A DNA stretch of 31,025 nucleotides. Origin: a virus. Its lineage: Duplodnaviria > Heunggongvirae > Uroviricota > Caudoviricetes. The position numbers and the translations under genes are program-made. The stretch is taken from positions 1 to 31,025 of the IMG/VR virus record IMGVR_UViG_2802429232_000001; one strand, given 5' to 3'. Each line of letters begins with the position of its first letter. The first letter of the stretch is position 1. Positions 5,657 through 31,025 of the stretch are shown piece after piece. Below the pieces are notes generated by a model. The model searched no databases. It saw only the letters and a list, made by a program, of their open reading frames with translations, and was not told where the DNA came from.

Positions 5657-6441
5657 GTCTCATCTCCCTTGAGCAAGTCTCTGTGACGCAAGTGATGCGT
5701 CGTATGTTTCTGATACATTCCGCCGTAATAAGCACGACAACTAAGACGGTCGATCTGGTGATGAAGAATCATTCCATCGCCGATATAAACCGCGCAGTGA
5801 TCTGGCATTTTCCCGTATTGAATAAAGAAGACGTCCCCACGTTGAGGCTCTGTTCCAGGCGCAAGCCGTACCAACCCTTCGTTTCGGTAGTTCTGGTCGA
5901 GAATGTCGTTATCGCCGGTGTACCACGATGGAATATGCAGGTGTGCGTTCGGGTTAAGCTCGACGTTAAACTCACGCTTCAAATAGTCCCGACACAACAT
6001 CCAGCAATCGAATACGCCAAATACATACGGTCTACCCAGGTATGGCATTTCGAAACCATCAGGTGTGATCACATTCATCTCGCTAAAATGGAAAGGGGCA
6101 TCTCCCTCAACATTCTTGCGAATAGCCAGAATCATCCACGGAACTTCCGTCGCTTCACAGCCTGCACGATCGGCATCAGATGCTTCTGCTGATTCATCAG
6201 TATGTGAATGCCAGATTGCGATTACGTCACCTGCATCCTCTGCCGCTATAATGTCGTCAACGTGCATTACAAAAGTGTTCTGCGGGTTCTCCGAAACATT
6301 TCGCGCTTCCATAAAGCGATATTTGTCGCCATTAGTTCTCACCAGAAAGCCACACGCTTCATTAGGGTAGCGATTTATGGCGCAGAGATAGATTTGCTGC
6401 ATAACATCAGAGCCAAGCTCAGGGATTGCTTTATTACCCAT
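5644..6441 (-). CDS. K: Tail tip assembly protein (lambda K-like) with MPN/JAMM and NlpC/P60 domains
   Basis: ORF track 5644..6468; start moved to second Met (MGNKAIPELG) at 6441, preceded by GGAG. Exact JAMM motif HxHx7Sx2D in IWHSHTDESAEASDAD; Cys (FDCWMLCRDY) and downstream His consistent with NlpC/P60. Confidence 0.8.
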   Translation of the reverse strand: MGNKAIPELGSDVMQQIYLCAINRYPNEACGFLVRTNGDKYRFMEARNVSENPQNTFVMHVDDIIAAEDAGDVIAIWHSHTDESAEASDADRAGCEATEVPWMILAIRKNVEGDAPFHFSEMNVITPDGFEMPYLGRPYVFGVFDCWMLCRDYLKREFNVELNPNAHLHIPSWYTGDNDILDQNYRNEGLVRLAPGTEPQRGDVFFIQYGKMPDHCAVYIGDGMILHHQIDRLSCRAYYGGMYQKHTTHHLRHRDLLKGDETCLS

Positions 6442-10500: not shown

Positions 10501-12122
10501 GCAGACGTCATCTGACTGGCAGTTCCTATAACTCCAGAAATACCAGCCTTAAGTAGCTTAAAGGCCACCATAGCAGCTACTACCTTGCCGAAGGCAATGA
10601 CCAGTTCTTGATTTTTAATCAGCCACATTGCCAAATCACGCAAGCCATCCACAGCCGTTGTCAATCCACTTCCCAATGAGTGAGCAAAAGACATACCATC
10701 TGTGCTATTCATCAAAGAGGTAAGTTCTTTCATCCCCTCTTTTAAAGAGGACAAATAACCAGCTTGGCCAACTTTATCCGCAAATAGCGTAAAGGCCGTC
10801 TGCATCTGCGCCAACGTACCGGTAAAAGTGTTCATCATTTCGGACGCAGCCCCCTCGTTCTGCATCTTCAACTCTTTGAACATAAGTGCCAGTGCGTTTT
10901 TGGCTTCTACCGTTCCAGATGCTACAGCTTTAGTTAACTCGCCCATTGTCAGACCAGCAGCCTTGGCCATTGCGTTCATTGCTGTCGGAATCGCCTCACC
11001 TAATTGCTGGCGAAGCTCTTCCATCGATACAACACCCTTACCAGACATCTGCTGAACAGCAATGGATGCACGCTTCAGAAGTTCGCTATCCCCACCAAAA
11101 CGAGCAACGGAATCGACAAGAGTCTTTAAAGAGCCATCTGTTGGATCTAATCCTGCTGAGCGGAATTTAACGAACGAATCGGTTAGAGCTTCCATCGCAA
11201 ATGGGGCGCTCTTAGCCATATCCACGATGTACTTCATATCATCAGCGGCAGCCTGGCCAGGGTTGGACTTCTCCTTATTCAACCCTCGAAGCATCACCCG
11301 CATACGTTCCATTTCGGCCGCAGCTTCAACAATAGGCTTCTGCCACCCAAACATGATGTCAGTAACCGTTCTGGCTGCATCTCCGATCTCGCCAAGCAGG
11401 AAAATGTTGCCACGAAGGCCAGAGAACATACCTCCTTCGTTACTTTTACCGCTATGGCCAGAAGCGCCGCTACGCCGCCCGCTACCACCATCGCCACTTC
11501 CAGATGTACGAACGCGTACCGGCTTGCTAATCAGTTGCTGACGTCCGATAACTTCGTCCATCTGCTCACGAACCTTTTTCAGTCCCTCGGCAGCCTGACT
11601 CGTTGTGACACCCCAATTACTGAGTCGCTTCGTCGTGGTATTAAGGCGCGTATTCATGCCACTCACGGACGCAGAGGCTTCTTTGACCTCCGTACCAAAG
11701 CGGCTTGCGCTTTTGCTTGCATAGGTCGCCCAATCAGAGAAATCATTTAGCTCTGATTGCACTTTTCGTAATGACGCGGTGAGTTTATCTACTGAAGAAG
11801 TTGTCGTATCGACGCGCTCAATTAGGGCTTTAAGACCAGAATTGAGGCTGGTGATGTTGCCACGCATTTTACGCGTAGCATCTGAAGCAAGCTCAAAACC
11901 GGCAGCTACATCCTGTAGTTTATCTGCCGTAGAATCGAGCTTGCTTTCCAGAACGCCAATGATACGGGCGACCGAACCCAAAGAGCGTTCAAAGGTTTGG
12001 ATTTTTTGAGCAGGCTTTGTTACCTGCTCACCAAATCGAGTAAGCAGTTTCCCCGCACGATCGATTGACGCTGTAAACTGTTTGTCTTCCAGCGACAGGA
12101 TAAACTCTACGTTTTGTGACAT
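7593..12122 (-). CDS. Tail tape measure protein (~1509 aa)
   Basis: ORF track 7593..12143 uses a TTG overlapping the T frame; start moved to ATG at 12122 (MSQNVEF). Coiled-coil N-terminal third, hydrophobic Gly/Ala-rich central segments, position between G-T and M. Confidence 0.85.
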   Translation of the reverse strand: MSQNVEFILSLEDKQFTASIDRAGKLLTRFGEQVTKPAQKIQTFERSLGSVARIIGVLESKLDSTADKLQDVAAGFELASDATRKMRGNITSLNSGLKALIERVDTTTSSVDKLTASLRKVQSELNDFSDWATYASKSASRFGTEVKEASASVSGMNTRLNTTTKRLSNWGVTTSQAAEGLKKVREQMDEVIGRQQLISKPVRVRTSGSGDGGSGRRSGASGHSGKSNEGGMFSGLRGNIFLLGEIGDAARTVTDIMFGWQKPIVEAAAEMERMRVMLRGLNKEKSNPGQAAADDMKYIVDMAKSAPFAMEALTDSFVKFRSAGLDPTDGSLKTLVDSVARFGGDSELLKRASIAVQQMSGKGVVSMEELRQQLGEAIPTAMNAMAKAAGLTMGELTKAVASGTVEAKNALALMFKELKMQNEGAASEMMNTFTGTLAQMQTAFTLFADKVGQAGYLSSLKEGMKELTSLMNSTDGMSFAHSLGSGLTTAVDGLRDLAMWLIKNQELVIAFGKVVAAMVAFKLLKAGISGVIGTASQMTSAFANMSTTIQGTFNLASTAVKRFNRAASMGLSPIPSLIFAIRNAFSGLVAFMAANPIGFAFTAAVTAVSSLIFYMQVLRGKIEDVVNKVREIPEAMTAADRAMLESAKREKDRQISKLEKEVTTGKRSQVSRDGLVYETDVDVNSTKQQLENLKKERDDIAKTLGEGIEKSVYKSVTKGLDDAIAEVNQKANVSLVANAKELEQLNKKNEEIAGRTDLSDHEKSQLRGANNAKIERLYSEADLQKLKGYQDIQKGILNDLVNLNEDFKKATTANNTEQLKEIQARIDAQIANKKSIEEQIENVTTSLSVKAGSGLKSINGGKIGEFSSTPVDANSKTMTGFWKQQMDSKRYQRVNLDGSALYDLQGQPVVGPRQLKEQLRQKKIYGDVKLEQLSENDRIAVIKTLTKARELDAEAADKAANRTAKAAERAAKKEQAAQQKLAAGYQKALDKADQLMGQMGESSKATVSFDQSLRDTTKSLTDLANAVPNEFITQEMIDKAKKRLEDLKNATPEYREMFNRRNVEQMISTWAPEADSIISAGYTPSREEKVADFEDTYNRNLKALIELRDKASDPKVVALYTKKINQLIAAGNTALIKETGTATQKLALEYENLAEQIESTWTDLFSGLTDVLTDFVINGKMSFSSLSQSILKDITNMVVKSQITLPLMNMLGMGTTAAGSSQSGNLLTGVASAVANQEVRMGNTVNGDKSVGEATKETSSSVTGLGQTTQQTTSAIGTATNAIGSWVSGLFDSTEAKDAETKAVKDSIFSMQNLSSVTGALSAAFAMLGANASGSGNKWLNFGATVASGLVSVWAGGGFDSVTSSSAKTATSSVADGTKGIPAIPKFANGGIFGKDGVIPLRAYQKGGIANSPQLALFGEGSMNEAYVPLPDGRTIPVTLSTDGMSGGGNVLSPVSIEINVHSDGSTTESGDTESIWNNAAQRVKAVVLETIAQEKRPGGSLNPNTQRN

Positions 12123-26232: not shown

Positions 26233-27792
26233 ATGACTGTTCGGATTGTATCTAACGCAGTAAATGCACTTATTTCTGGCGCAGATGACAAGGTAAAGCA
26301 ACTGGTGCAACAGATGTTGAGCTACGAAGTCGAGACTGGCGACTGGAAGGGCACAAGCACGATGTTCAACTGGAGTAAAAACTCGTTCCCTGCTGGCTTT
26401 GCCAAGCCTGTAGCGGCGAACTTGAACAAGGCGGGCATCAAATGTGTTCATATCCGCAAAGACAAAGCTCCGGCGCTTGGAAAGCCAAATCCGGCGGTCA
26501 ACCCATTCCCATACAATCCTGATTATGCATATCAGGATCAGACTGTGGAAACACTGGTTCGAGAGGGAATGATGATTGCGCAGATCGCTACTGGTGGCGG
26601 GAAATCTAATGTTGCCTGCAAAGCAGCTGCACGTATCGGTCGAATGACATTATTTTTAACAACCCGCTCTGTTCTGATGTTTCAGATGGCCGAAAACTTC
26701 CAGAGATCCATCGACTACCGCGCCGAAAATGGCGAACCGTGGTTAAAAGACCAAAAGGTTGGAGTCATTGGCTCGGGTGAGTTCCAGGTATCACGACATA
26801 TCAACGTCGCTACAGTTCAAACTCTGGCAAGTTTCCTTGAAGAACCACCACGCGATGCAACTCCAGATAAGAAGAGCTACCACCTCAAACGTCGGGACTT
26901 GGTGAAACGCTTCCTTTCAAGTGTCTCTCTTCTTATTCTGGAAGAGGCGCATGAGTCTTCAGGCTCTAATTTCTATGACATTGCCAGATTATGTGCGAAC
27001 GCAGACTATCGCCTGGCGCTTACGGCAACGCCGTTCATGAAGGATTCTACGGAAGCCAACATGCGTCTGATGGCAGTGGCCGGGCGAATTGAAATAAAAG
27101 TCACGGAAAAGTACCTGATTGATAGAGGCATTCTGGCAAAGCCATACTTCCTTTATCATAAAGTTGCCTACAAGCCGGACGAGGCCAGAATCAAGGCAGA
27201 ACTTGCCAACAAACACCTCAATTTTAGAGTAGGTATGAGCACTGCCTACCAAAAGGCTTATCAGTTGGGGATCGTGTATAATTTGGGACGTAATGAGGCC
27301 ATTGTTCGCGAAGCATTGCTCTATAAGCAACATTCTCTCAATTGTATGACTCTGGTTCGTCTTAAACGCCACGGGCAAATCCTGATGGAAATGATGAAAG
27401 AGTCCGGCCTTAGAGTTGACTTCATTTATGGGGAATCGAACCAGTCGACAAGGCAAGCAAAGCTGAACAGTTTAGCGTCTGGCGACATAGATGTTTTAAT
27501 AGGCTCGACTATTCTGGATGTCGGTGTTGATGTGCCAAGCGTTGGTGCGGTCATTCTTGCTGGTGGTGGGAAAGCAGAAGTTGAAATGAGACAACGTGTC
27601 GGTCGTGGCTTACGAGCCAAGAAGAATCAGGCAAACGTGTGTTTTATCACTGATTTCATTGACATTAGCAACAAATACCTGTTGTCTCACTCTTATGAGC
27701 GAAAACACATCATCGACACCACACCTGGCTTTGCAGAAGGTGTATTGCCTGTTGATGGCGCATTCGATTTTGGAGTTCTGAAACGAGATTAG
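26233..27792 (+). CDS. Superfamily 2 helicase (DEAD/DEAH-like, ResIII-type core)
   Basis: ORF track (519 aa). Motif I IATGGGKSN, motif II LILEEAHE, motif III LTATPF, motif VI QRVGRGLR. Confidence 0.8.
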   Translation: MTVRIVSNAVNALISGADDKVKQLVQQMLSYEVETGDWKGTSTMFNWSKNSFPAGFAKPVAANLNKAGIKCVHIRKDKAPALGKPNPAVNPFPYNPDYAYQDQTVETLVREGMMIAQIATGGGKSNVACKAAARIGRMTLFLTTRSVLMFQMAENFQRSIDYRAENGEPWLKDQKVGVIGSGEFQVSRHINVATVQTLASFLEEPPRDATPDKKSYHLKRRDLVKRFLSSVSLLILEEAHESSGSNFYDIARLCANADYRLALTATPFMKDSTEANMRLMAVAGRIEIKVTEKYLIDRGILAKPYFLYHKVAYKPDEARIKAELANKHLNFRVGMSTAYQKAYQLGIVYNLGRNEAIVREALLYKQHSLNCMTLVRLKRHGQILMEMMKESGLRVDFIYGESNQSTRQAKLNSLASGDIDVLIGSTILDVGVDVPSVGAVILAGGGKAEVEMRQRVGRGLRAKKNQANVCFITDFIDISNKYLLSHSYERKHIIDTTPGFAEGVLPVDGAFDFGVLKRD

Positions 27793-27794
27793 TT

Positions 27795-28073
27795 ATGAGC
27801 GAAAAGAAAACAACTTATTGCCAAGTGGCATTGTCTGATAAGGCCAATGAAAAACTTGGAAAATTTCAAATAAAACTCAAAGAGAAAAAAATCAAGATGT
27901 CTAAGGCTGAAGTTATCAATGCCATTCTGGAGACGATGACTATGGCTGAATTTGACAAAGTCACATCTGCCGTTGGGGTTTCCGCTAAGACGCGTGAGAA
28001 AATCATGCGCATCTATGAGAACTCCAATATGACAAAAAAAGATCTAGAGGAAATACTGAGCAGGTTGCCGTAA
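27795..28073 (+). CDS. Hypothetical small protein (92 aa), Lys/Glu-rich
   Basis: ORF track; start 2 nt after helicase stop, so co-transcribed. Confidence 0.5.
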   Translation: MSEKKTTYCQVALSDKANEKLGKFQIKLKEKKIKMSKAEVINAILETMTMAEFDKVTSAVGVSAKTREKIMRIYENSNMTKKDLEEILSRLP

Positions 28074-28105
28074 CATTTCATATTTACCCCCTATCAACTA
28101 ATTCT

Positions 28106-28141
28106 ATGATGTGCTCACTTGTTAGAAAGGAGCACATCATG
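28106..28141 (+). promoter_or_regulatory. Perfect 11-bp inverted repeat ATGATGTGCTC-N13-GAGCACATCAT covering the SD and start codon of the next gene
   Basis: Read directly; the right arm ends in the ATG at ~28139 and the loop contains AAGGAG. Could form an mRNA hairpin occluding translation initiation, or be a dimeric-protein operator. Confidence 0.5.
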
Positions 28142-28705
28142 AGTTGGTTAAAAGAATTATCATTTGTTGACACCACTGGCGCTAAGAAAAATCATTCTTT
28201 CTGGAAAGTCAGCGATCCTTCTGATTTTCTTGTTGGTGCTAATGCTGCGTTTGAATTGCTTAACTTTTATCAACGTTATCCTGAAATGAAACACAGTCCA
28301 CTCCTGTACAGAATAACAAACGATATGAATAGGTCTGGTTTATTATCAAGTGAGTCAGCGAAAGGCTTTTTTAGCAAAATTACGCCACACATATCATTCG
28401 ATGCAGCAAACGAAATTGATTATCTATCCACGAAACCTCAAGAACAATTATCTGTACCACCTGAGAAAAAAGAAAGACGAATTGCCAGCATTGAAAATAT
28501 ATCGAAAGAGCTTCGCACAACAACGTTGAGGCTGCTGAACTTTCTTACGCTACTTAATTGGATAGATGATCAAACATTGATTCCATCAACCGATGCGTTG
28601 GATAACAGAGTCCTTCGTCTAAACAAAAAATCGCAATTTGGTTTTGTGTTCACCAAAAAAGGTGAAGATTTAATCAAAAGAAAATATAGATTATTGAATG
28701 ATTAA
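28139..28705 (+). CDS. Hypothetical protein (189 aa), AT-rich gene
   Basis: ORF track 28106..28705; start moved to ATG at 28139 (MSWLKEL), which has AAGGAG 7 nt upstream. Visibly lower G+C than the structural genes (by eye, not computed). Confidence 0.5.
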   Translation: MSWLKELSFVDTTGAKKNHSFWKVSDPSDFLVGANAAFELLNFYQRYPEMKHSPLLYRITNDMNRSGLLSSESAKGFFSKITPHISFDAANEIDYLSTKPQEQLSVPPEKKERRIASIENISKELRTTTLRLLNFLTLLNWIDDQTLIPSTDALDNRVLRLNKKSQFGFVFTKKGEDLIKRKYRLLND

Positions 28706-28710
28706 TAGTC

Positions 28711-28740
28711 TACATGCAGGTGTATGAGAGCACCTGCATG
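28711..28740 (+). terminator. 11-bp perfect hairpin ACATGCAGGTG-N8-CACCTGCATGT after the 189-aa gene (terminator-like or operator)
   Basis: Read directly; the T-run (TTTTTT) sits ~13 nt downstream rather than adjacent, so not a textbook intrinsic terminator. Confidence 0.4.
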
Positions 28741-28850
28741 TGACATTCATCACATTTTTTGAAGTACACACCTCCGGCTGAAAAAATTTCTTGATTGGCT
28801 GAACGATATTTGTAGGCTTTTCAATTGATAACTAAGGTCGGATACTGTAG

Positions 28851-29339
28851 ATGAGTATTTCTATAAACAAAATAATTAACTCTTTACGACATAAAATATC
28901 ACATGGAAAAGATGTTCTTTTTAAAGACAAATATTATCTATTCAACTTAGTGCCGTACAAATGTACAAAATTTTATATCACTCGGGACTGTAAATATTCA
29001 GTTTCAATCACAAAAGACATGAAGAAAATCTCTTCAGAAGAGTACTTCATATCACATATTTATATCTACCCATTTAAATTAGAACCATTAAATATAATTC
29101 TTCCAACAATAAAAGGGGTTGAACTTGAAGGTTATACTTTAAGCTCTAACTTTAATGATATGGGTGTACAAAAACCAGGGTCAAGGTCATACTACGCCTA
29201 CAAAGTAAAATGCAATAACTACAACGCACTTAACATGCTAATCAGCAAACTTGAAACGGAGATAGTCAAAGGAAATCTAAATGATGATCATGAAAAATTA
29301 GAACAAATAGAAAAACTTAGAAAGTGTGATGTTAAATAA
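28851..29339 (+). CDS. Hypothetical protein (162 aa), strongly AT-rich gene
   Basis: ORF track. Lys/Asn/Ile/Tyr-rich; composition by eye roughly 30-35% G+C, clearly below the rest of the window. Confidence 0.5.
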   Translation: MSISINKIINSLRHKISHGKDVLFKDKYYLFNLVPYKCTKFYITRDCKYSVSITKDMKKISSEEYFISHIYIYPFKLEPLNIILPTIKGVELEGYTLSSNFNDMGVQKPGSRSYYAYKVKCNNYNALNMLISKLETEIVKGNLNDDHEKLEQIEKLRKCDVK

Positions 29340-29354
29340 TTGGATTATCATGAT

Positions 29355-29954
29355 ATGAAAATGAAACTTTCGTTACTCCTTGCTTGTATATGCCTCCCGG
29401 CGTTTTCCGCCAACGCATTATCAGATTTCGTCTCTGACATGCAAAAAACGTACAGCATGTATACTTCTGAAGACGTACTAAAATACAAATCACGAGGTCT
29501 GATTCAACCAGTCTGGTATAGATTCTCAGATAACGCAGAAGAAACAATACTTCATGCAGGAAAAGAAAGATTACGGTTGCAAATTAACGGGACCGCAGTA
29601 CCAGAAAACGCTAATGTAAGCTCTAACGAGGCCATGAAGCCATCTGGAATTGTTTTAGAAATTCAAGACGGTACACTCTATTGTGATGAAATGGCTACAA
29701 CGGGTTGCCAAGTGAACATCAGAGTTGGCAATGAAGAACCTATTGTCACTTATGCTAAGACTGAAGGGAATACCAGTGGGAAGGTATTGTTTATTGATGA
29801 AAACACAACAAAACGTATCGTTCGCGACATCAAGAAAACAACGAACTCTAAATCCGTCGATAAAAAAATCTATGTTGAAGTCCCCTTCTTGGTCGTTGGT
29901 AACAAAGAATTTAAATTTGGATTGCTGAAAACACCTCTAAGAGTATCAGAATGA
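29355..29954 (+). CDS. Secreted protein or lipoprotein (signal peptide MKMKLSLLLACICLPAFSANA)
   Basis: ORF track 29340..29954 begins at a TTG; first ATG at 29355 gives a classic signal peptide with a possible lipobox (LLAC) or signal peptidase I site (AFSA-NA). Confidence 0.5.
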   Translation: MKMKLSLLLACICLPAFSANALSDFVSDMQKTYSMYTSEDVLKYKSRGLIQPVWYRFSDNAEETILHAGKERLRLQINGTAVPENANVSSNEAMKPSGIVLEIQDGTLYCDEMATTGCQVNIRVGNEEPIVTYAKTEGNTSGKVLFIDENTTKRIVRDIKKTTNSKSVDKKIYVEVPFLVVGNKEFKFGLLKTPLRVSE

Positions 29955-30472
29955 GAACATTGGACATCACCTACGGCATACCGGCTGAAGTATGGCCGCG
30001 AAACTACGAACATGCTGAACGCACCTTGCTCTTCTGGCGGAGTGCTCAATTTCCTGTAAGAGTCACTCTCGAAGACGGCCAAGTGTTTTGCATGTATGTC
30101 TACGGGCTGTTGAGCGCAAGAAATAAGCTGAACCTCACACCAGATCCGTTTAGCAACACAAATCGTGTAAGGCTCCCTCTTGAGCGCATTAGCACAATTG
30201 AGTCAGGCATAGAAGAGGTTGACACTTCATTCACAGGTCGACTAACACTGAACAATGAACAGATGGTTAATCAGCCATCACGCCGTGACTTTTTTGCGAT
30301 ATGTCGCAAGGCTTATCAAAACGACCAATCTATAAGGGTCTACATGGCAGACGGTCGTGAAATAGAAGGGGTATCAAGAGGCGTTGATGCTTGCCAGGTC
30401 ACTCTTAAGTTAGAAGACGGCAGAAAAATACTTGTTTTCTTCGATTGGGTTGAACGAATTTTACCTTTTTGA
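29951..30472 (+). CDS. Protein with two Rof/YaeO-like repeats (putative Rho-interacting Sm-like fold)
   Basis: ORF track (173 aa); start overlaps upstream stop (ATGA). Both halves carry hydrophobic-x-hydrophobic-x-(E/K)DG cores (RVTLEDGQVF, RVYMADGREIEG, QVTLKLEDGRKILVF) and a tail RVRLPLERISTIES that resemble E. coli Rof (LTLELKDGEKLQAKA, RELRLDKITSFS) as I recall it. Confidence 0.45.
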   Translation: MRTLDITYGIPAEVWPRNYEHAERTLLFWRSAQFPVRVTLEDGQVFCMYVYGLLSARNKLNLTPDPFSNTNRVRLPLERISTIESGIEEVDTSFTGRLTLNNEQMVNQPSRRDFFAICRKAYQNDQSIRVYMADGREIEGVSRGVDACQVTLKLEDGRKILVFFDWVERILPF

Positions 30473-30475
30473 GTT

Positions 30476-30772
30476 ATGAAATCGATACTATTGACATCTT
30501 TATTTTTAGTTTACTCAATTTCGGCCAATGCAAAGGATGATATCGCAATTATTCAGTCGCTGATGAATGACGTATGCTCAACGTCTCAGAATGTACCAGT
30601 TTGCATGTTTAAACTTTCAGCAGCTGTAAAACTAGGGATAAACATTGGTAAGACCGCTCAACTATGTGAACAAGTGGAAAATTATGAACCATGTGAATCG
30701 AACAACTCTTCTGTGCAGTTCGTTGATGCGTTATTTGACACCAATCGTAAGGCTGTAGAGTCAGTCCGATAA
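30476..30772 (+). CDS. Small secreted Cys-containing protein (signal peptide MKSILLTSLFLVYSISANA)
   Basis: ORF track (98 aa); cleavable signal peptide; mature part has four Cys. Confidence 0.5.
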   Translation: MKSILLTSLFLVYSISANAKDDIAIIQSLMNDVCSTSQNVPVCMFKLSAAVKLGINIGKTAQLCEQVENYEPCESNNSSVQFVDALFDTNRKAVESVR

Positions 30773-30784
30773 ATGTATAAGGGT

Positions 30785-30813
30785 AATAACCGGCTAAGTC
30801 CGGTTATTTTTTT
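30785..30813 (+). terminator. Intrinsic terminator closing the plus-strand accessory operon
   Basis: AATAACCGG-ctaagt-CCGGTTATT followed directly by TTTTTTT, 13 nt after the last stop codon. Confidence 0.75.
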
Positions 30814-31025
30814 AAATGCCATTTATTAAATACACCTCCAATTCTACCCCGTATAAATATATAAGGTTATAAGCCGCAATTAATTATTTATTTAGGGAAC
30901 ACCTTCGACGATCTCGATTTTATTTCTAGGACTTCCGTCCCTGCAAAAAATTTAAAAAAAAACATGCAATCTTTTTTTGCGTATCGATAATTTAACGAAT
31001 AAGAAACGAGAGTAAAAATTTTCTT

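What the first reader, a model, noticed from the sequence alone, without database searches (positions are those of the whole stretch)
28106..29339. AT-rich two-gene cassette with its own hairpin signals inside the plus-strand arm (likely horizontally acquired moron)
Seen in sequence: the 189-aa and 162-aa genes are visibly AT-richer than the structural genes (by eye, not computed); they are bracketed by an 11-bp perfect inverted repeat over the first gene's SD/ATG and an 11-bp perfect hairpin after it. Established: phage morons with deviant composition often encode defence, anti-defence or superinfection-exclusion functions. Inference: the proteins have no motifs I recognise and could be a novel accessory function.
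Basis: partly seen in the sequence, partly recalled or inferred. Interest (0 to 1): 0.6.

Follow-up and report, generated by a model that had tools for sequence, protein, structure and literature searches.

The report
Swappable accessory genes in a phage-plasmid
Two small AT-rich genes of unknown function sit in a gene-swapping hotspot of an E. coli phage-plasmid: the first is an old resident, poorly expressed in the one lysogen with RNA-seq, whose ribosome-binding site lies in a conserved hairpin predicted to block it, and the second is one of several interchangeable alleles, so this is a familiar kind of locus holding uncharacterised candidates for phage-conflict functions.

Summary
Segment 28106-29339 has GC 0.335 against 0.474 elsewhere (z -6.7), and both 11-bp perfect inverted repeats exist and exceed chance. 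The window is an SSU5-supergroup E. coli phage-plasmid. The two genes are not one cassette but separate modules joined at 28819/28820. Gene 1 (28139-28705, 188 aa) is not a recent import. Diverged homologs (22-43% identity) occupy the same slot, between helicase/p92 and the FljA-like gene, in loci from seven genera (tblastn hits in four more). In 4 of 5 diverged lineages its SD/start lies inside a strong hairpin kept by compensatory change. In a Cyrano lysogen its mRNA is 8-30 times lower than that of the upstream gene. Gene 2 (162 aa) is one allele of a hypervariable family (162-, 182-, 191/204-aa forms, 20-30% identical) placed next to an identical gene 1. The same slot holds an McrA-like HNH nuclease in one relative, and a SIR2 gene in a chromosomal remnant. 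No known domain, defence-model hit or confident structure was found. Best reading: a cargo hotspot for conflict or lysogenic-conversion genes under tight translational control. The biochemical function remains unknown.

The parts
27795..28073 (+). p92: conserved 92-aa gene upstream (context). Its last ~25 nt belong to the gene 1 module.
   Evidence: phrog_1466. Present in all relatives examined. It is the lysogen-expressed CYRAN_117. Homology to a gene 1-less relative ends at 28048.
28049..28819 (+). Module A: gene 1 with its 5' hairpin, 3' hairpin and a conserved 114-nt tail. It is exchanged as one block.
   Evidence: blastn breakpoints against L001, L002, L003 and L021.
28083..28110 (+). Weak sigma-70-like match TTTACC-16-TATGAT. 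The -10 overlaps the start of the 5' arm.
   Evidence: 9 of 12 matches, and such sites are no more frequent than in shuffles. The -35 is not conserved in other genera. Unverified.
28096..28149 (+). 5' stem-loop that contains the SD (28127-28132) and start codon (28139-28141) of gene 1. The inner perfect 11-bp stem is 28106-28116 / 28130-28140.
   Evidence: The position is conserved with different sequences in Citrobacter/Klebsiella/Salmonella (G:C to C:G swap), L011 and Morganella.
28139..28705 (+). Gene 1: 188-aa basic (pI 9.3) cytoplasmic protein with two conserved blocks joined by a variable linker. Family phrog_13473.
   Evidence: dN/dS is 0.11. No Pfam, NCBIfam or PADLOC hit above threshold.
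28712..28741 (+). 3' stem-loop after the gene 1 stop, followed by a small GTGA..TCAC hairpin (28740-28753) and a T-run (28755-28760). Probably a terminator or 3'-end stabiliser.
   Evidence: The sequence differs but the structure is kept in L013, L005, Citrobacter and Klebsiella. Canonical intrinsic terminators occupy this position in Morganella L007 and L011. The terminator scan did not call it.
28770..28819 (+). Conserved non-coding tail: ACCTCCGGCTG (28770-28780), then TTGATT (28791-28796), a 16-nt spacer and TAGGCT (28813-28818). The allele-swap junction falls directly after it.
   Evidence: Conserved upstream of every gene 2 allele in Escherichia, Citrobacter and Klebsiella. The promoter reading is by eye (7 of 12) and untested.
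28820..29962 (+). Module B: the cargo in this window, gene 2 plus the 199-aa exported protein.
   Evidence: Replaced by other cargo in L001, L002, L017 and L021.
28851..29339 (+). Gene 2: 162-aa basic cytoplasmic protein (phrog_25050), GC 0.288. One allele of a hypervariable superfamily.
   Evidence: Related to the 191/204-aa and 182-aa alleles. dN/dS is 0.37.
29355..29954 (+). 199-aa protein with an N-terminal signal peptide (phrog_18942). It travels with the 162-aa allele but also occurs alone.
29951..30472 (+). FljA-like gene (Flag1_repress): the conserved right border of the variable slot.
   Evidence: Pfam PF03614, E = 1.9e-68. Present in all relatives examined.

Best explanation
The segment belongs to a ~2.7-kb AT-rich accessory arm of an SSU5-supergroup E. 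coli phage-plasmid, lying between the helicase/p92 genes and the FljA-like gene. It consists of independently exchangeable single-gene modules. Gene 1 is a long-standing resident of this slot. Its Shine-Dalgarno sequence and AUG are buried in a -30 kcal/mol RNA stem-loop, and a terminator-like stem-loop follows it. Transcripts reading in from the helicase/p92 genes should therefore be translationally silent, and the gene is poorly expressed in lysogens until some trigger opens or bypasses the hairpin (inferred). Directly after gene 1's conserved tail lies a cargo position where unrelated or highly diverged genes replace one another. Gene 2 is one such allele, accompanied here by an exported 199-aa protein. 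Other occupants are an McrA-like HNH nuclease, a SIR2 protein and various lipoproteins. On that basis the most likely role of gene 2, and possibly gene 1, is in conflict between mobile elements or in lysogenic conversion: defence, exclusion or counter-defence. Tight translational control would fit products that are costly or toxic. The architecture, hotspot behaviour and hairpin conservation are shown here. The RNA-level mechanism, the trigger and the conflict function are inferred.
For: Identity of the element: 98-99.9% DNA identity to Escherichia phage CMS-2020a, Cyrano, PhiR41_1 and ~105-115 kb non-mobilizable plasmids; Cyrano is described as SSU5-like (PMC9928086). Module junctions at 28048, 28819/28820 and 29962. 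Six E. coli locus configurations. Gene 1 homologs occupy the same slot at 22-43% identity, while the helicase is 58-92% and p92/FljA are 26-65%. tblastn finds the family in 179 plasmids of 8 genera. The hairpin covers the SD in 4 of 5 diverged lineages with different sequences (perfect repeats of 11, 14-16, 12 and 7-9 bp; P<0.001 for three, 0.06 for L011). In the alignable clade 100% of cells are paired, with one G:C<->C:G and one C:G<->U:G pair, while slid registers give 15-60%. G-U pairs in the outer stem favour RNA over a DNA palindrome (sequence). In Cyrano lysogens gene 1 mRNA is 3.7/2.3 log2 units in LB against 7.2/6.3 for the adjacent p92, and about 5.8 against 9-10 later. A 100%-identical gene 1 sits next to gene 2 alleles only 20-30% identical to each other. 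Gene 2 dS against L005 is 0.26, while gene 1 is 1.07 and the helicase 1.59, which indicates recent exchange. An HNH/McrA-like 377-aa protein fills the slot in L021 (PDB 6ghc E = 6e-4; PADLOC HNH 2e-5, mREase_IV 3e-5) and has its own SD-covering 8-bp hairpin. A 28.5%-GC SIR2 gene (PADLOC ThsA 3e-31) is inserted exactly at the post-gene 1 junction in L009.
Against: No biochemical clue for either protein. Pfam, NCBIfam, PADLOC and PDB sequence searches found no significant or above-cutoff match, and PHROGs gave only families of unknown function. The AlphaFold models are unreliable (pLDDT 41.5 and 49.4) and Foldseek gave no hit at E <= 1e-3. The SIR2 example is known only from a chromosomal remnant, not from a plasmid. 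The homology of the HNH protein's N-terminal part to gene 2 is weak (hhalign probability 35%; one BLASTP E = 6e-5 to the 182-aa allele). Providencia lacks the 5' hairpin. An own promoter for gene 1 is only a weak consensus match with a non-conserved -35. Gene 2 in this window shows no significant structure at its start. The RNA-seq comes from Cyrano, which has different downstream cargo, and only from non-induced conditions.
Confidence: 0.5

Rival explanations
1. One reading: one recently acquired two-gene moron cassette that carries its own signals and is expressed from the prophage to benefit the host.
For: Deviant GC. Patchy presence among relatives. A hairpin follows gene 1.
Against: The genes separate at a clean junction and occur independently. 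Gene 1 is syntenic in loci from seven genera at 22-43% identity. Low GC persists through 57% divergence. Gene 1 is at background expression in a lysogen. Both hairpins belong to gene 1 only.
Confidence: 0.08
2. The 5' inverted repeat works mainly at the DNA level, as a palindromic operator overlapping the gene 1 promoter. It would be bound by a repressor (p92, gene 1 itself or the phage repressor), not act as an RNA hairpin.
For: The arm sequence ATGTGCTC/GAGCACAT is invariant across Escherichia, Citrobacter, Klebsiella and Salmonella, while the loop and flanks vary. A -10-like hexamer overlaps the 5' arm. Symmetric changes in both arms are also expected for a palindromic operator. By eye, p92 resembles a ribbon-helix-helix protein and gene 1 has helix-turn-helix-like stretches.
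Against: The 3' arm always includes the SD whatever its sequence. Perfect stems of 11-16 bp are atypical for operators. The outer stem extension pairs only through G-U. No DNA-binding family was detected in p92 or gene 1.
Confidence: 0.15
3. Genes 1 and 2 are early lytic or host-takeover genes, possibly anti-defence, used on infection or induction. They would not be lysogen-protective cargo.
For: Gene 1 is nearly silent in lysogens. The proteins are small, basic, fast-evolving orphans in an AT-rich arm next to helicase and ParB-like genes. This profile matches phage early accessory regions (own knowledge).
Against: The neighbouring p92, lipoprotein and FljA-like genes are expressed in lysogens. 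The same slot carries restriction-like HNH and SIR2 genes, which are defence-type rather than takeover-type. No anti-defence model was available to test.
Confidence: 0.2
4. Gene 1 and gene 2 form a toxin-antitoxin or abortive-infection pair.
For: They are adjacent small genes. Translation of gene 1 is tightly restrained. A constant gene is paired with a diversifying partner.
Against: A 145-nt spacer with a terminator-like hairpin lies between them. Gene 1 occurs without any gene 2-type partner in Cyrano, Providencia, Morganella and L011. No TA or Abi family hit was found.
Confidence: 0.07

Closest known systems
Phage morons (extra genes between conserved genes; Juhala et al. 2000, own knowledge; usage as in PMC9928086)
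   Same: Small genes of deviant, AT-rich composition are inserted between conserved genes. They vary in presence among relatives, and gene 1 is followed by a terminator-like hairpin.
   Different: Gene 1 is an old syntenic resident and is not expressed above background in the one lysogen with data. Its start is masked rather than freely expressed. The unit of exchange is a single gene, not the pair.
Variable defence hotspots of P2-like phages and P4-like satellites (Rousset et al. 2022, own knowledge)
   Same: Fixed conserved flanks with interchangeable cargo at one position. The cargo includes restriction-like (HNH/McrA-like) and SIR2 genes and many proteins of unknown function.
   Different: The element family differs (SSU5-supergroup phage-plasmids). 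Most cargo here has no match to known defence models. A conserved, hairpin-locked gene (gene 1) and a conserved non-coding tail sit just upstream of the cargo position.
Fold-back inhibition of IS10/IS50 transposase translation (Davis, Simons & Kleckner 1985; Schulz & Reznikoff 1991; own knowledge)
   Same: An inverted repeat whose 3' arm contains the SD/AUG, while the 5' arm lies at or upstream of the gene's putative own -10. Read-through transcripts would fold and be untranslatable, and native transcripts would not.
   Different: The native promoter and transcription start are unverified here. The gene is a phage-plasmid accessory gene, not a transposase.
McrA-type Type IV restriction enzymes (PDB 6ghc)
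   Same: The 377-aa cargo allele in relative L021 has a matching C-terminal HNH motif, preceded by a different N-terminal region.
   Different: This applies to a relative's allele, not to the window's gene 2, which lacks any nuclease domain. The link between the N-terminal region and gene 2 is weak.

Membership tests
Moron | Present in some genomes and absent from closely related ones at the same position | tested here: met
   Gene 1 is in 79 and gene 2 in 22 of 192 related plasmids. L003 and pCTX lack both.
Moron | Nucleotide composition deviates from the surrounding genome | tested here: met
   GC 0.335 against 0.474, z -6.7.
Moron | Own promoter and terminator flank the gene | tested here: inconclusive
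   The terminator-like hairpin is conserved. The promoter is only a 9/12 consensus match, no better than shuffles, and its -35 is not conserved.
Moron | Expressed from the repressed prophage | tested here: not met
   Published Cyrano lysogen RNA-seq: gene 1 (CYRAN_116) averages 9.0 in LB, near the levels of the structural genes, and is not on the moron list. Gene 2 was not testable because it is absent from Cyrano.
Known anti-phage defence systems (PADLOC 2.0) | Significant match to a defence-protein model | tested here: not met
   Gene 1 has only SspC at E = 0.0064, 12 bits. Gene 2 and all its alleles have none.
Prophage/satellite-type defence hotspot | Conserved flanks with alternative cargo that includes recognised defence genes | tested here: inconclusive
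   Alternative cargo is shown. The HNH/mREase_IV-like protein in L021 is a weak match (E about 1e-5). SIR2 is seen only in the chromosomal remnant L009.
Fold-back inhibition (IS10/IS50 type) | Inverted repeat whose 3' arm sequesters the SD/AUG | tested here: met
Fold-back inhibition (IS10/IS50 type) | The native transcript starts inside or after the 5' arm and so lacks it | not testable with these tools
   The only evidence is a -10-like hexamer overlapping the 5' arm. Mapping the transcription start is required.
Toxin-antitoxin pair | Tightly linked, co-transcribed pair that always occurs together, with known toxin or antitoxin domains | tested here: not met
   A 145-nt spacer with a hairpin separates them. 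Gene 1 occurs alone in several lineages. No domains were found.
Bro-N / KilA-C (ANT) antirepressor-like proteins (my recollection of motif patterns) | Match to PF02498 and/or PF03374 | tested here: not met
   No such hit at E <= 10 in any of 10 diverged members, and no annotated PHROG recurs.
SSU5-supergroup phage-plasmid (the element as a whole) | Close DNA similarity and synteny with recognised members | tested here: met
   Cyrano is described as SSU5-like in PMC9928086.

The most novel reading that the evidence does not exclude
Gene 1 and the gene 2 superfamily together form a previously unrecognised two-part conflict system specific to SSU5-supergroup phage-plasmids. Gene 1 would be the constant partner, translationally locked by a hairpin. 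The gene 2 position would supply a hypervariable specificity or effector partner, one allele of which is fused to an HNH nuclease. Cargo would be swapped at a fixed junction just after a conserved promoter-like tail, so the locus would act as an expression platform for interchangeable effectors.
Probability: 0.15. Interest if true: 0.7.

Novelty: new member of a known kind. Interest (0 to 1): 0.4.

Why it matters
SSU5-type phage-plasmids are common in clinical Enterobacteriaceae, yet most of their accessory genes have no assigned function. This analysis pins down a precise cargo junction, a set of interchangeable orphan alleles, and a conserved RNA-level lock on a resident gene. That yields concrete candidates to screen for new defence, exclusion or counter-defence activities, and a compact example of insulation from read-through expression outside insertion sequences. 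If the genes prove to have no conflict phenotype, the locus is simply another mosaic accessory region.

Tried and rejected
Structure: both AlphaFold jobs gave unusable models (pLDDT 41.5 and 49.4). Foldseek of the gene 2 model against the PDB gave no hit at E <= 1e-3, only generic alpha/beta matches.

Sequence homology: Pfam, NCBIfam and PADLOC gave no significant or above-cutoff match for either gene or any allele, and PHROGs gave only families of unknown function. PDB profile searches for whole proteins and for the separate N- and C-terminal blocks of gene 1 gave only E > 0.1. The exhaustive HMMER search returned 11 proteins, all from the same family.

Hunches from motif patterns, none supported by any scan and kept only as leads: gene 1 C-terminal block as KilA-C/winged helix, gene 1 N-terminal block as Bro-N or PadR-like (best PDB hit 2esh, E = 0.56), and p92 as ribbon-helix-helix.

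Long-range pairing of the conserved ACCTCCGGCTG motif with the SD of each gene 2 allele: fold z-scores ran from -1.3 to +0.8, and duplex energies beat shuffles in only 2 of 5 alleles. Rejected as unsupported.

Rfam: no match in 27500-31025 at E <= 1.

SIR2 cargo on real plasmids: not found.

Species-representative genomes: the first attempt failed because the alignment was too divergent. The second returned one locus.

The weak YmgB/AriR Pfam match of gene 2 (E = 0.0012, below the cut-off) was disregarded.
Full report
WHAT IS THERE. The window is part of a ~105-115 kb SSU5-supergroup phage-plasmid of E. coli. Region 27700-29600 is 98-99.9% identical to Escherichia phage CMS-2020a and to non-mobilizable plasmids such as NZ_CP124469, and partly identical to phages Cyrano and PhiR41_1. 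Cyrano is described as SSU5-like in PMC9928086. Genes from 885 to 26168 lie on the minus strand. A plus-strand arm begins at 26233 with a DEAD/UvsW-type helicase (519 aa). It continues with p92 (27795-28073), gene 1 (28139-28705), gene 2 (28851-29339), a 199-aa protein with a signal peptide (29355-29954), an FljA-like gene (29951-30472; Pfam Flag1_repress, E = 1.9e-68) and a 98-aa secreted protein.

Segment 28106-29339 has GC 0.335, against 0.474 +/- 0.021 for equal-sized windows elsewhere (z -6.7), and is the window minimum. GC3 is 0.307 for gene 1 and 0.270 for gene 2, against about 0.47. Both 11-bp perfect inverted repeats are present, at 28106-28116/28130-28140 and 28712-28722/28731-28741. 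None of 1000 dinucleotide shuffles reached 11 bp. The RNA folds are -29.7 kcal/mol (z -8.5) and -26.8 kcal/mol (z -5.1). There are two corrections. The true start of gene 1 is ATG 28139, behind SD AAGGAG, giving 188 aa. The in-frame ATG at 28106 has no SD and falls out of frame in Salmonella. Both hairpins flank gene 1 only.

NOT ONE CASSETTE. Pairwise blastn against relatives gives clean junctions at 28048, 28819/28820 and 29962. In PLSDB, 192 plasmids share the helicase/p92 junction, 79 carry gene 1 and 22 carry gene 2, and every gene 2 carrier also has gene 1. Among 5426 complete E. coli genomes, 132 have some part of the arm, always on plasmids. Of these, 36 have both modules, and the listed rows show further groups with gene 1 only or the 199-aa gene only. 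E. coli relatives show at least six configurations:
- p92-lipoprotein-FljA
- p92-p199-FljA
- p92-gene 1-(minus-strand 266-aa lipoprotein)-FljA
- p92-gene 1-191 aa-117 aa-lipoprotein-FljA
- p92-gene 1-182 aa-FljA
- p92-gene 1-gene 2-p199-FljA-p98, the form in this window

GENE 1 IS AN OLD RESIDENT. Word-based and exhaustive HMMER searches found only a small family. Its diverged members all sit in the same slot, ParB-ParB-helicase-p92-like-[homolog]-...-FljA-like. The loci examined are Citrobacter (43% identity), Klebsiella (41%), Salmonella (42%), an unnamed 110-kb lineage (27%), Providencia (25%) and Morganella (22%). Gene 1 has diverged about as much as its neighbours p92 and FljA, while the helicase is far more conserved. 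Against Citrobacter the identities are helicase 92%, p92 60%, gene 1 43% and FljA 63%. Against Providencia they are 58%, 26%, 25% and 26%. tblastn finds the family in 179 plasmids of eight genera. dN/dS is 0.11, so it is a real gene under purifying selection. The protein has two conserved blocks joined by a variable linker and has no signal peptide or membrane segment.

THE HAIRPINS ARE CONSERVED STRUCTURES. In Citrobacter, Klebsiella and Salmonella the 5' stem is kept and extended to 14-16 bp, with a G:C to C:G double change. L011 has a different 7-9 bp stem. Morganella has an unrelated 12-bp stem, TATTCACTCCGT/ACGGAGTGAATA. In every case the 3' arm contains the SD and ends within a few bases of the AUG. 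Providencia has no such stem. On the alignable clade all cells are paired, with one pair changed on both sides and one C:G<->U:G pair, while slid registers give 15-60% pairing. The outer extension in E. coli pairs partly through G-U, which favours an RNA structure. The 3' hairpin likewise changes sequence but keeps its place. In Morganella L007 and L011 it is a canonical GC-rich stem followed by a T-run. These data fit RBS sequestration plus termination.

A -10-like TATGAT overlaps the start of the 5' arm. If it is real, native transcripts would lack the 5' arm, and only read-through transcripts would be locked, as in IS10/IS50 fold-back inhibition (own knowledge). The promoter match is weak and its -35 is not conserved, so this step is inferred.

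PUBLISHED EXPRESSION DATA. In LF82 lysogens of Cyrano, whose gene 1 is about 99% identical, log2(FPKM+5) for gene 1 (CYRAN_116) is 3.7/2.3 in LB and about 5.8 in later conditions. The adjacent upstream p92 gene (CYRAN_117) is at 7.2/6.3 and about 9-10. The authors list p92, but not gene 1, among lysogen-expressed morons (PMC9928086). No terminator is predicted between the two genes. The drop fits an untranslated, unstable or prematurely terminated message (inference).

GENE 2 IS ONE ALLELE OF A HYPERVARIABLE FAMILY. Gene 2 has only three close clusters (96%, 80% and 57% identity). The 191-aa protein that follows gene 1 in PhiR41_1 is a distant homolog (hhalign probability 92%, E = 7e-7, shared PF...LSSNFN core). 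So are a 204-aa Klebsiella protein and a 182-aa E. coli protein. The 191-aa allele gives tblastn matches in 61 Klebsiella and 3 Cronobacter plasmids at under 60% identity. A 100%-identical gene 1 can sit beside alleles that share only 20-30% identity with each other. Gene 2's synonymous divergence from L005 is 0.26, while its neighbours are at 0.5-1.6, which indicates recent exchange. Its dN/dS is 0.37. Its GC stays at 0.28-0.29 in Citrobacter and L005, so AT-richness is a maintained trait. H-NS targeting of such DNA is plausible from general knowledge but was not tested. All alleles begin directly after a conserved tail, ACCTCCGGCTG...TTGATT-16-TAGGCT, that ends at 28819. This may be a weak promoter for whatever cargo follows (by eye, untested).

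WHAT ELSE OCCUPIES THE SLOT. A survey of 33 loci found, after an identical gene 1 on a 111.5-kb IMG/VR contig (L021), a 377-aa protein with an McrA-like HNH motif (PDB 6ghc E = 6e-4; PADLOC HNH 2e-5, Type IV methyl-directed restriction enzyme 3e-5). That gene has its own 8-bp SD-covering hairpin (z -2.8). Cyrano is a ~1-kb deletion derivative of this allele. The N-terminal region of the 377-aa protein matches the 182-aa allele by BLASTP (26.5% over 147 aa, E = 6e-5). It matches the superfamily profile only weakly (probability 35%), so a gene 2-type domain fused to a nuclease is suggestive, not shown.

In a chromosomal island (L009/L010), the 3' half of a Morganella-type gene 1 and the lipoprotein gene flank a 3.1-kb, 28.5%-GC insertion. 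The two flanks are 21 nt apart in the phage-plasmid. The insertion encodes a 945-aa SIR2 protein (PADLOC ThsA 3e-31, Dsr2 5.5e-23). That SIR2 gene was not found on any PLSDB plasmid. The remaining cargo consists of exported proteins and lipoproteins of unknown function.

FUNCTION. No domain, defence-model or solved-structure match was obtained for gene 1 or gene 2. Both structure predictions were of low confidence. I therefore commit only to this: the locus is a cargo hotspot under tight translational control, and the company it keeps points to roles in conflict between mobile elements or in lysogenic conversion. Rival readings (DNA operator, early lytic or anti-defence genes, toxin-antitoxin pair, single recent moron) are listed with their evidence.

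VERDICT. This is a real feature of a known kind: a mosaic accessory hotspot of a temperate element. It contains uncharacterised protein families already catalogued as PHROGs of unknown function, plus a well-supported conserved RBS-sequestering hairpin. Interest is moderate.

Noticed in passing
window 29951-30472: A full-length homolog of FljA, the Salmonella repressor of phase-1 flagellin (Pfam Flag1_repress, E = 1.9e-68), is conserved at the right edge of the slot in every relative examined, but is itself highly divergent (26-92% identity). Its role in a phage-plasmid is unexplained.
   Followed up: partly
window 27795-28073: The 92-aa gene upstream of gene 1 is conserved across the supergroup and is one of the transcriptome-defined morons of Cyrano (CYRAN_117, 12-fold above background). 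By eye its N-terminus looks ribbon-helix-helix-like, but no family or PDB match supports that.
   Followed up: partly
window 30471-30772: The 98-aa secreted-protein gene is a separate insertion/deletion: absent from Cyrano and PhiR41_1, present in CP053388. A canonical terminator follows at 30785-30808.
   Followed up: partly
L009 5942-10111 (also L010): A chromosomal island is built from a fragment of a Morganella-type phage-plasmid locus (gene 1 3' half and the lipoprotein gene), with a 945-aa, 28.5%-GC SIR2 (ThsA/DSR2-like) gene inserted exactly at the post-gene 1 junction.
   Followed up: yes
L021 7708-8841: A 377-aa McrA-like HNH protein occupies the gene 2 position on a 111.5-kb viral contig. 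Cyrano (L001, about 5980-5994) carries a ~1-kb internal deletion of this gene, so its annotation shows an apparently empty gap.
   Followed up: yes
window 28106-28138: Many database entries annotate gene 1 as 199 aa, starting from the ATG inside the 5' arm of the hairpin (cluster P0002, 483 members). The upstream ATG lacks an SD and is out of frame in Salmonella, so this is probably a start-codon mis-call.
   Followed up: yes
window 28818-28831: A CAATTG-centred palindrome (TTTTCAATTGATAA) sits exactly at the module A/module B junction. It may be chance.
   Followed up: no
relatives H238 (NZ_JBRBPR010000004.1) and H240 (NZ_JBWDPP010000001.1): ISVsa5 and IS5 insertions interrupt this arm in some E. 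coli plasmids.
   Followed up: no
L016 3766-3794: Klebsiella's gene 2-type gene is preceded by a local 9-bp hairpin (GCCTCCATTT/AAATGGAGG) that covers its SD. The annotated ATG start is probably wrong, and a GTG start downstream matches the PhiR41_1 protein's N-terminus.
   Followed up: partly
L007/L008 about 10700-11010: The Morganella phage-plasmids carry a HigB-toxin gene a few kb downstream of the locus.
   Followed up: no
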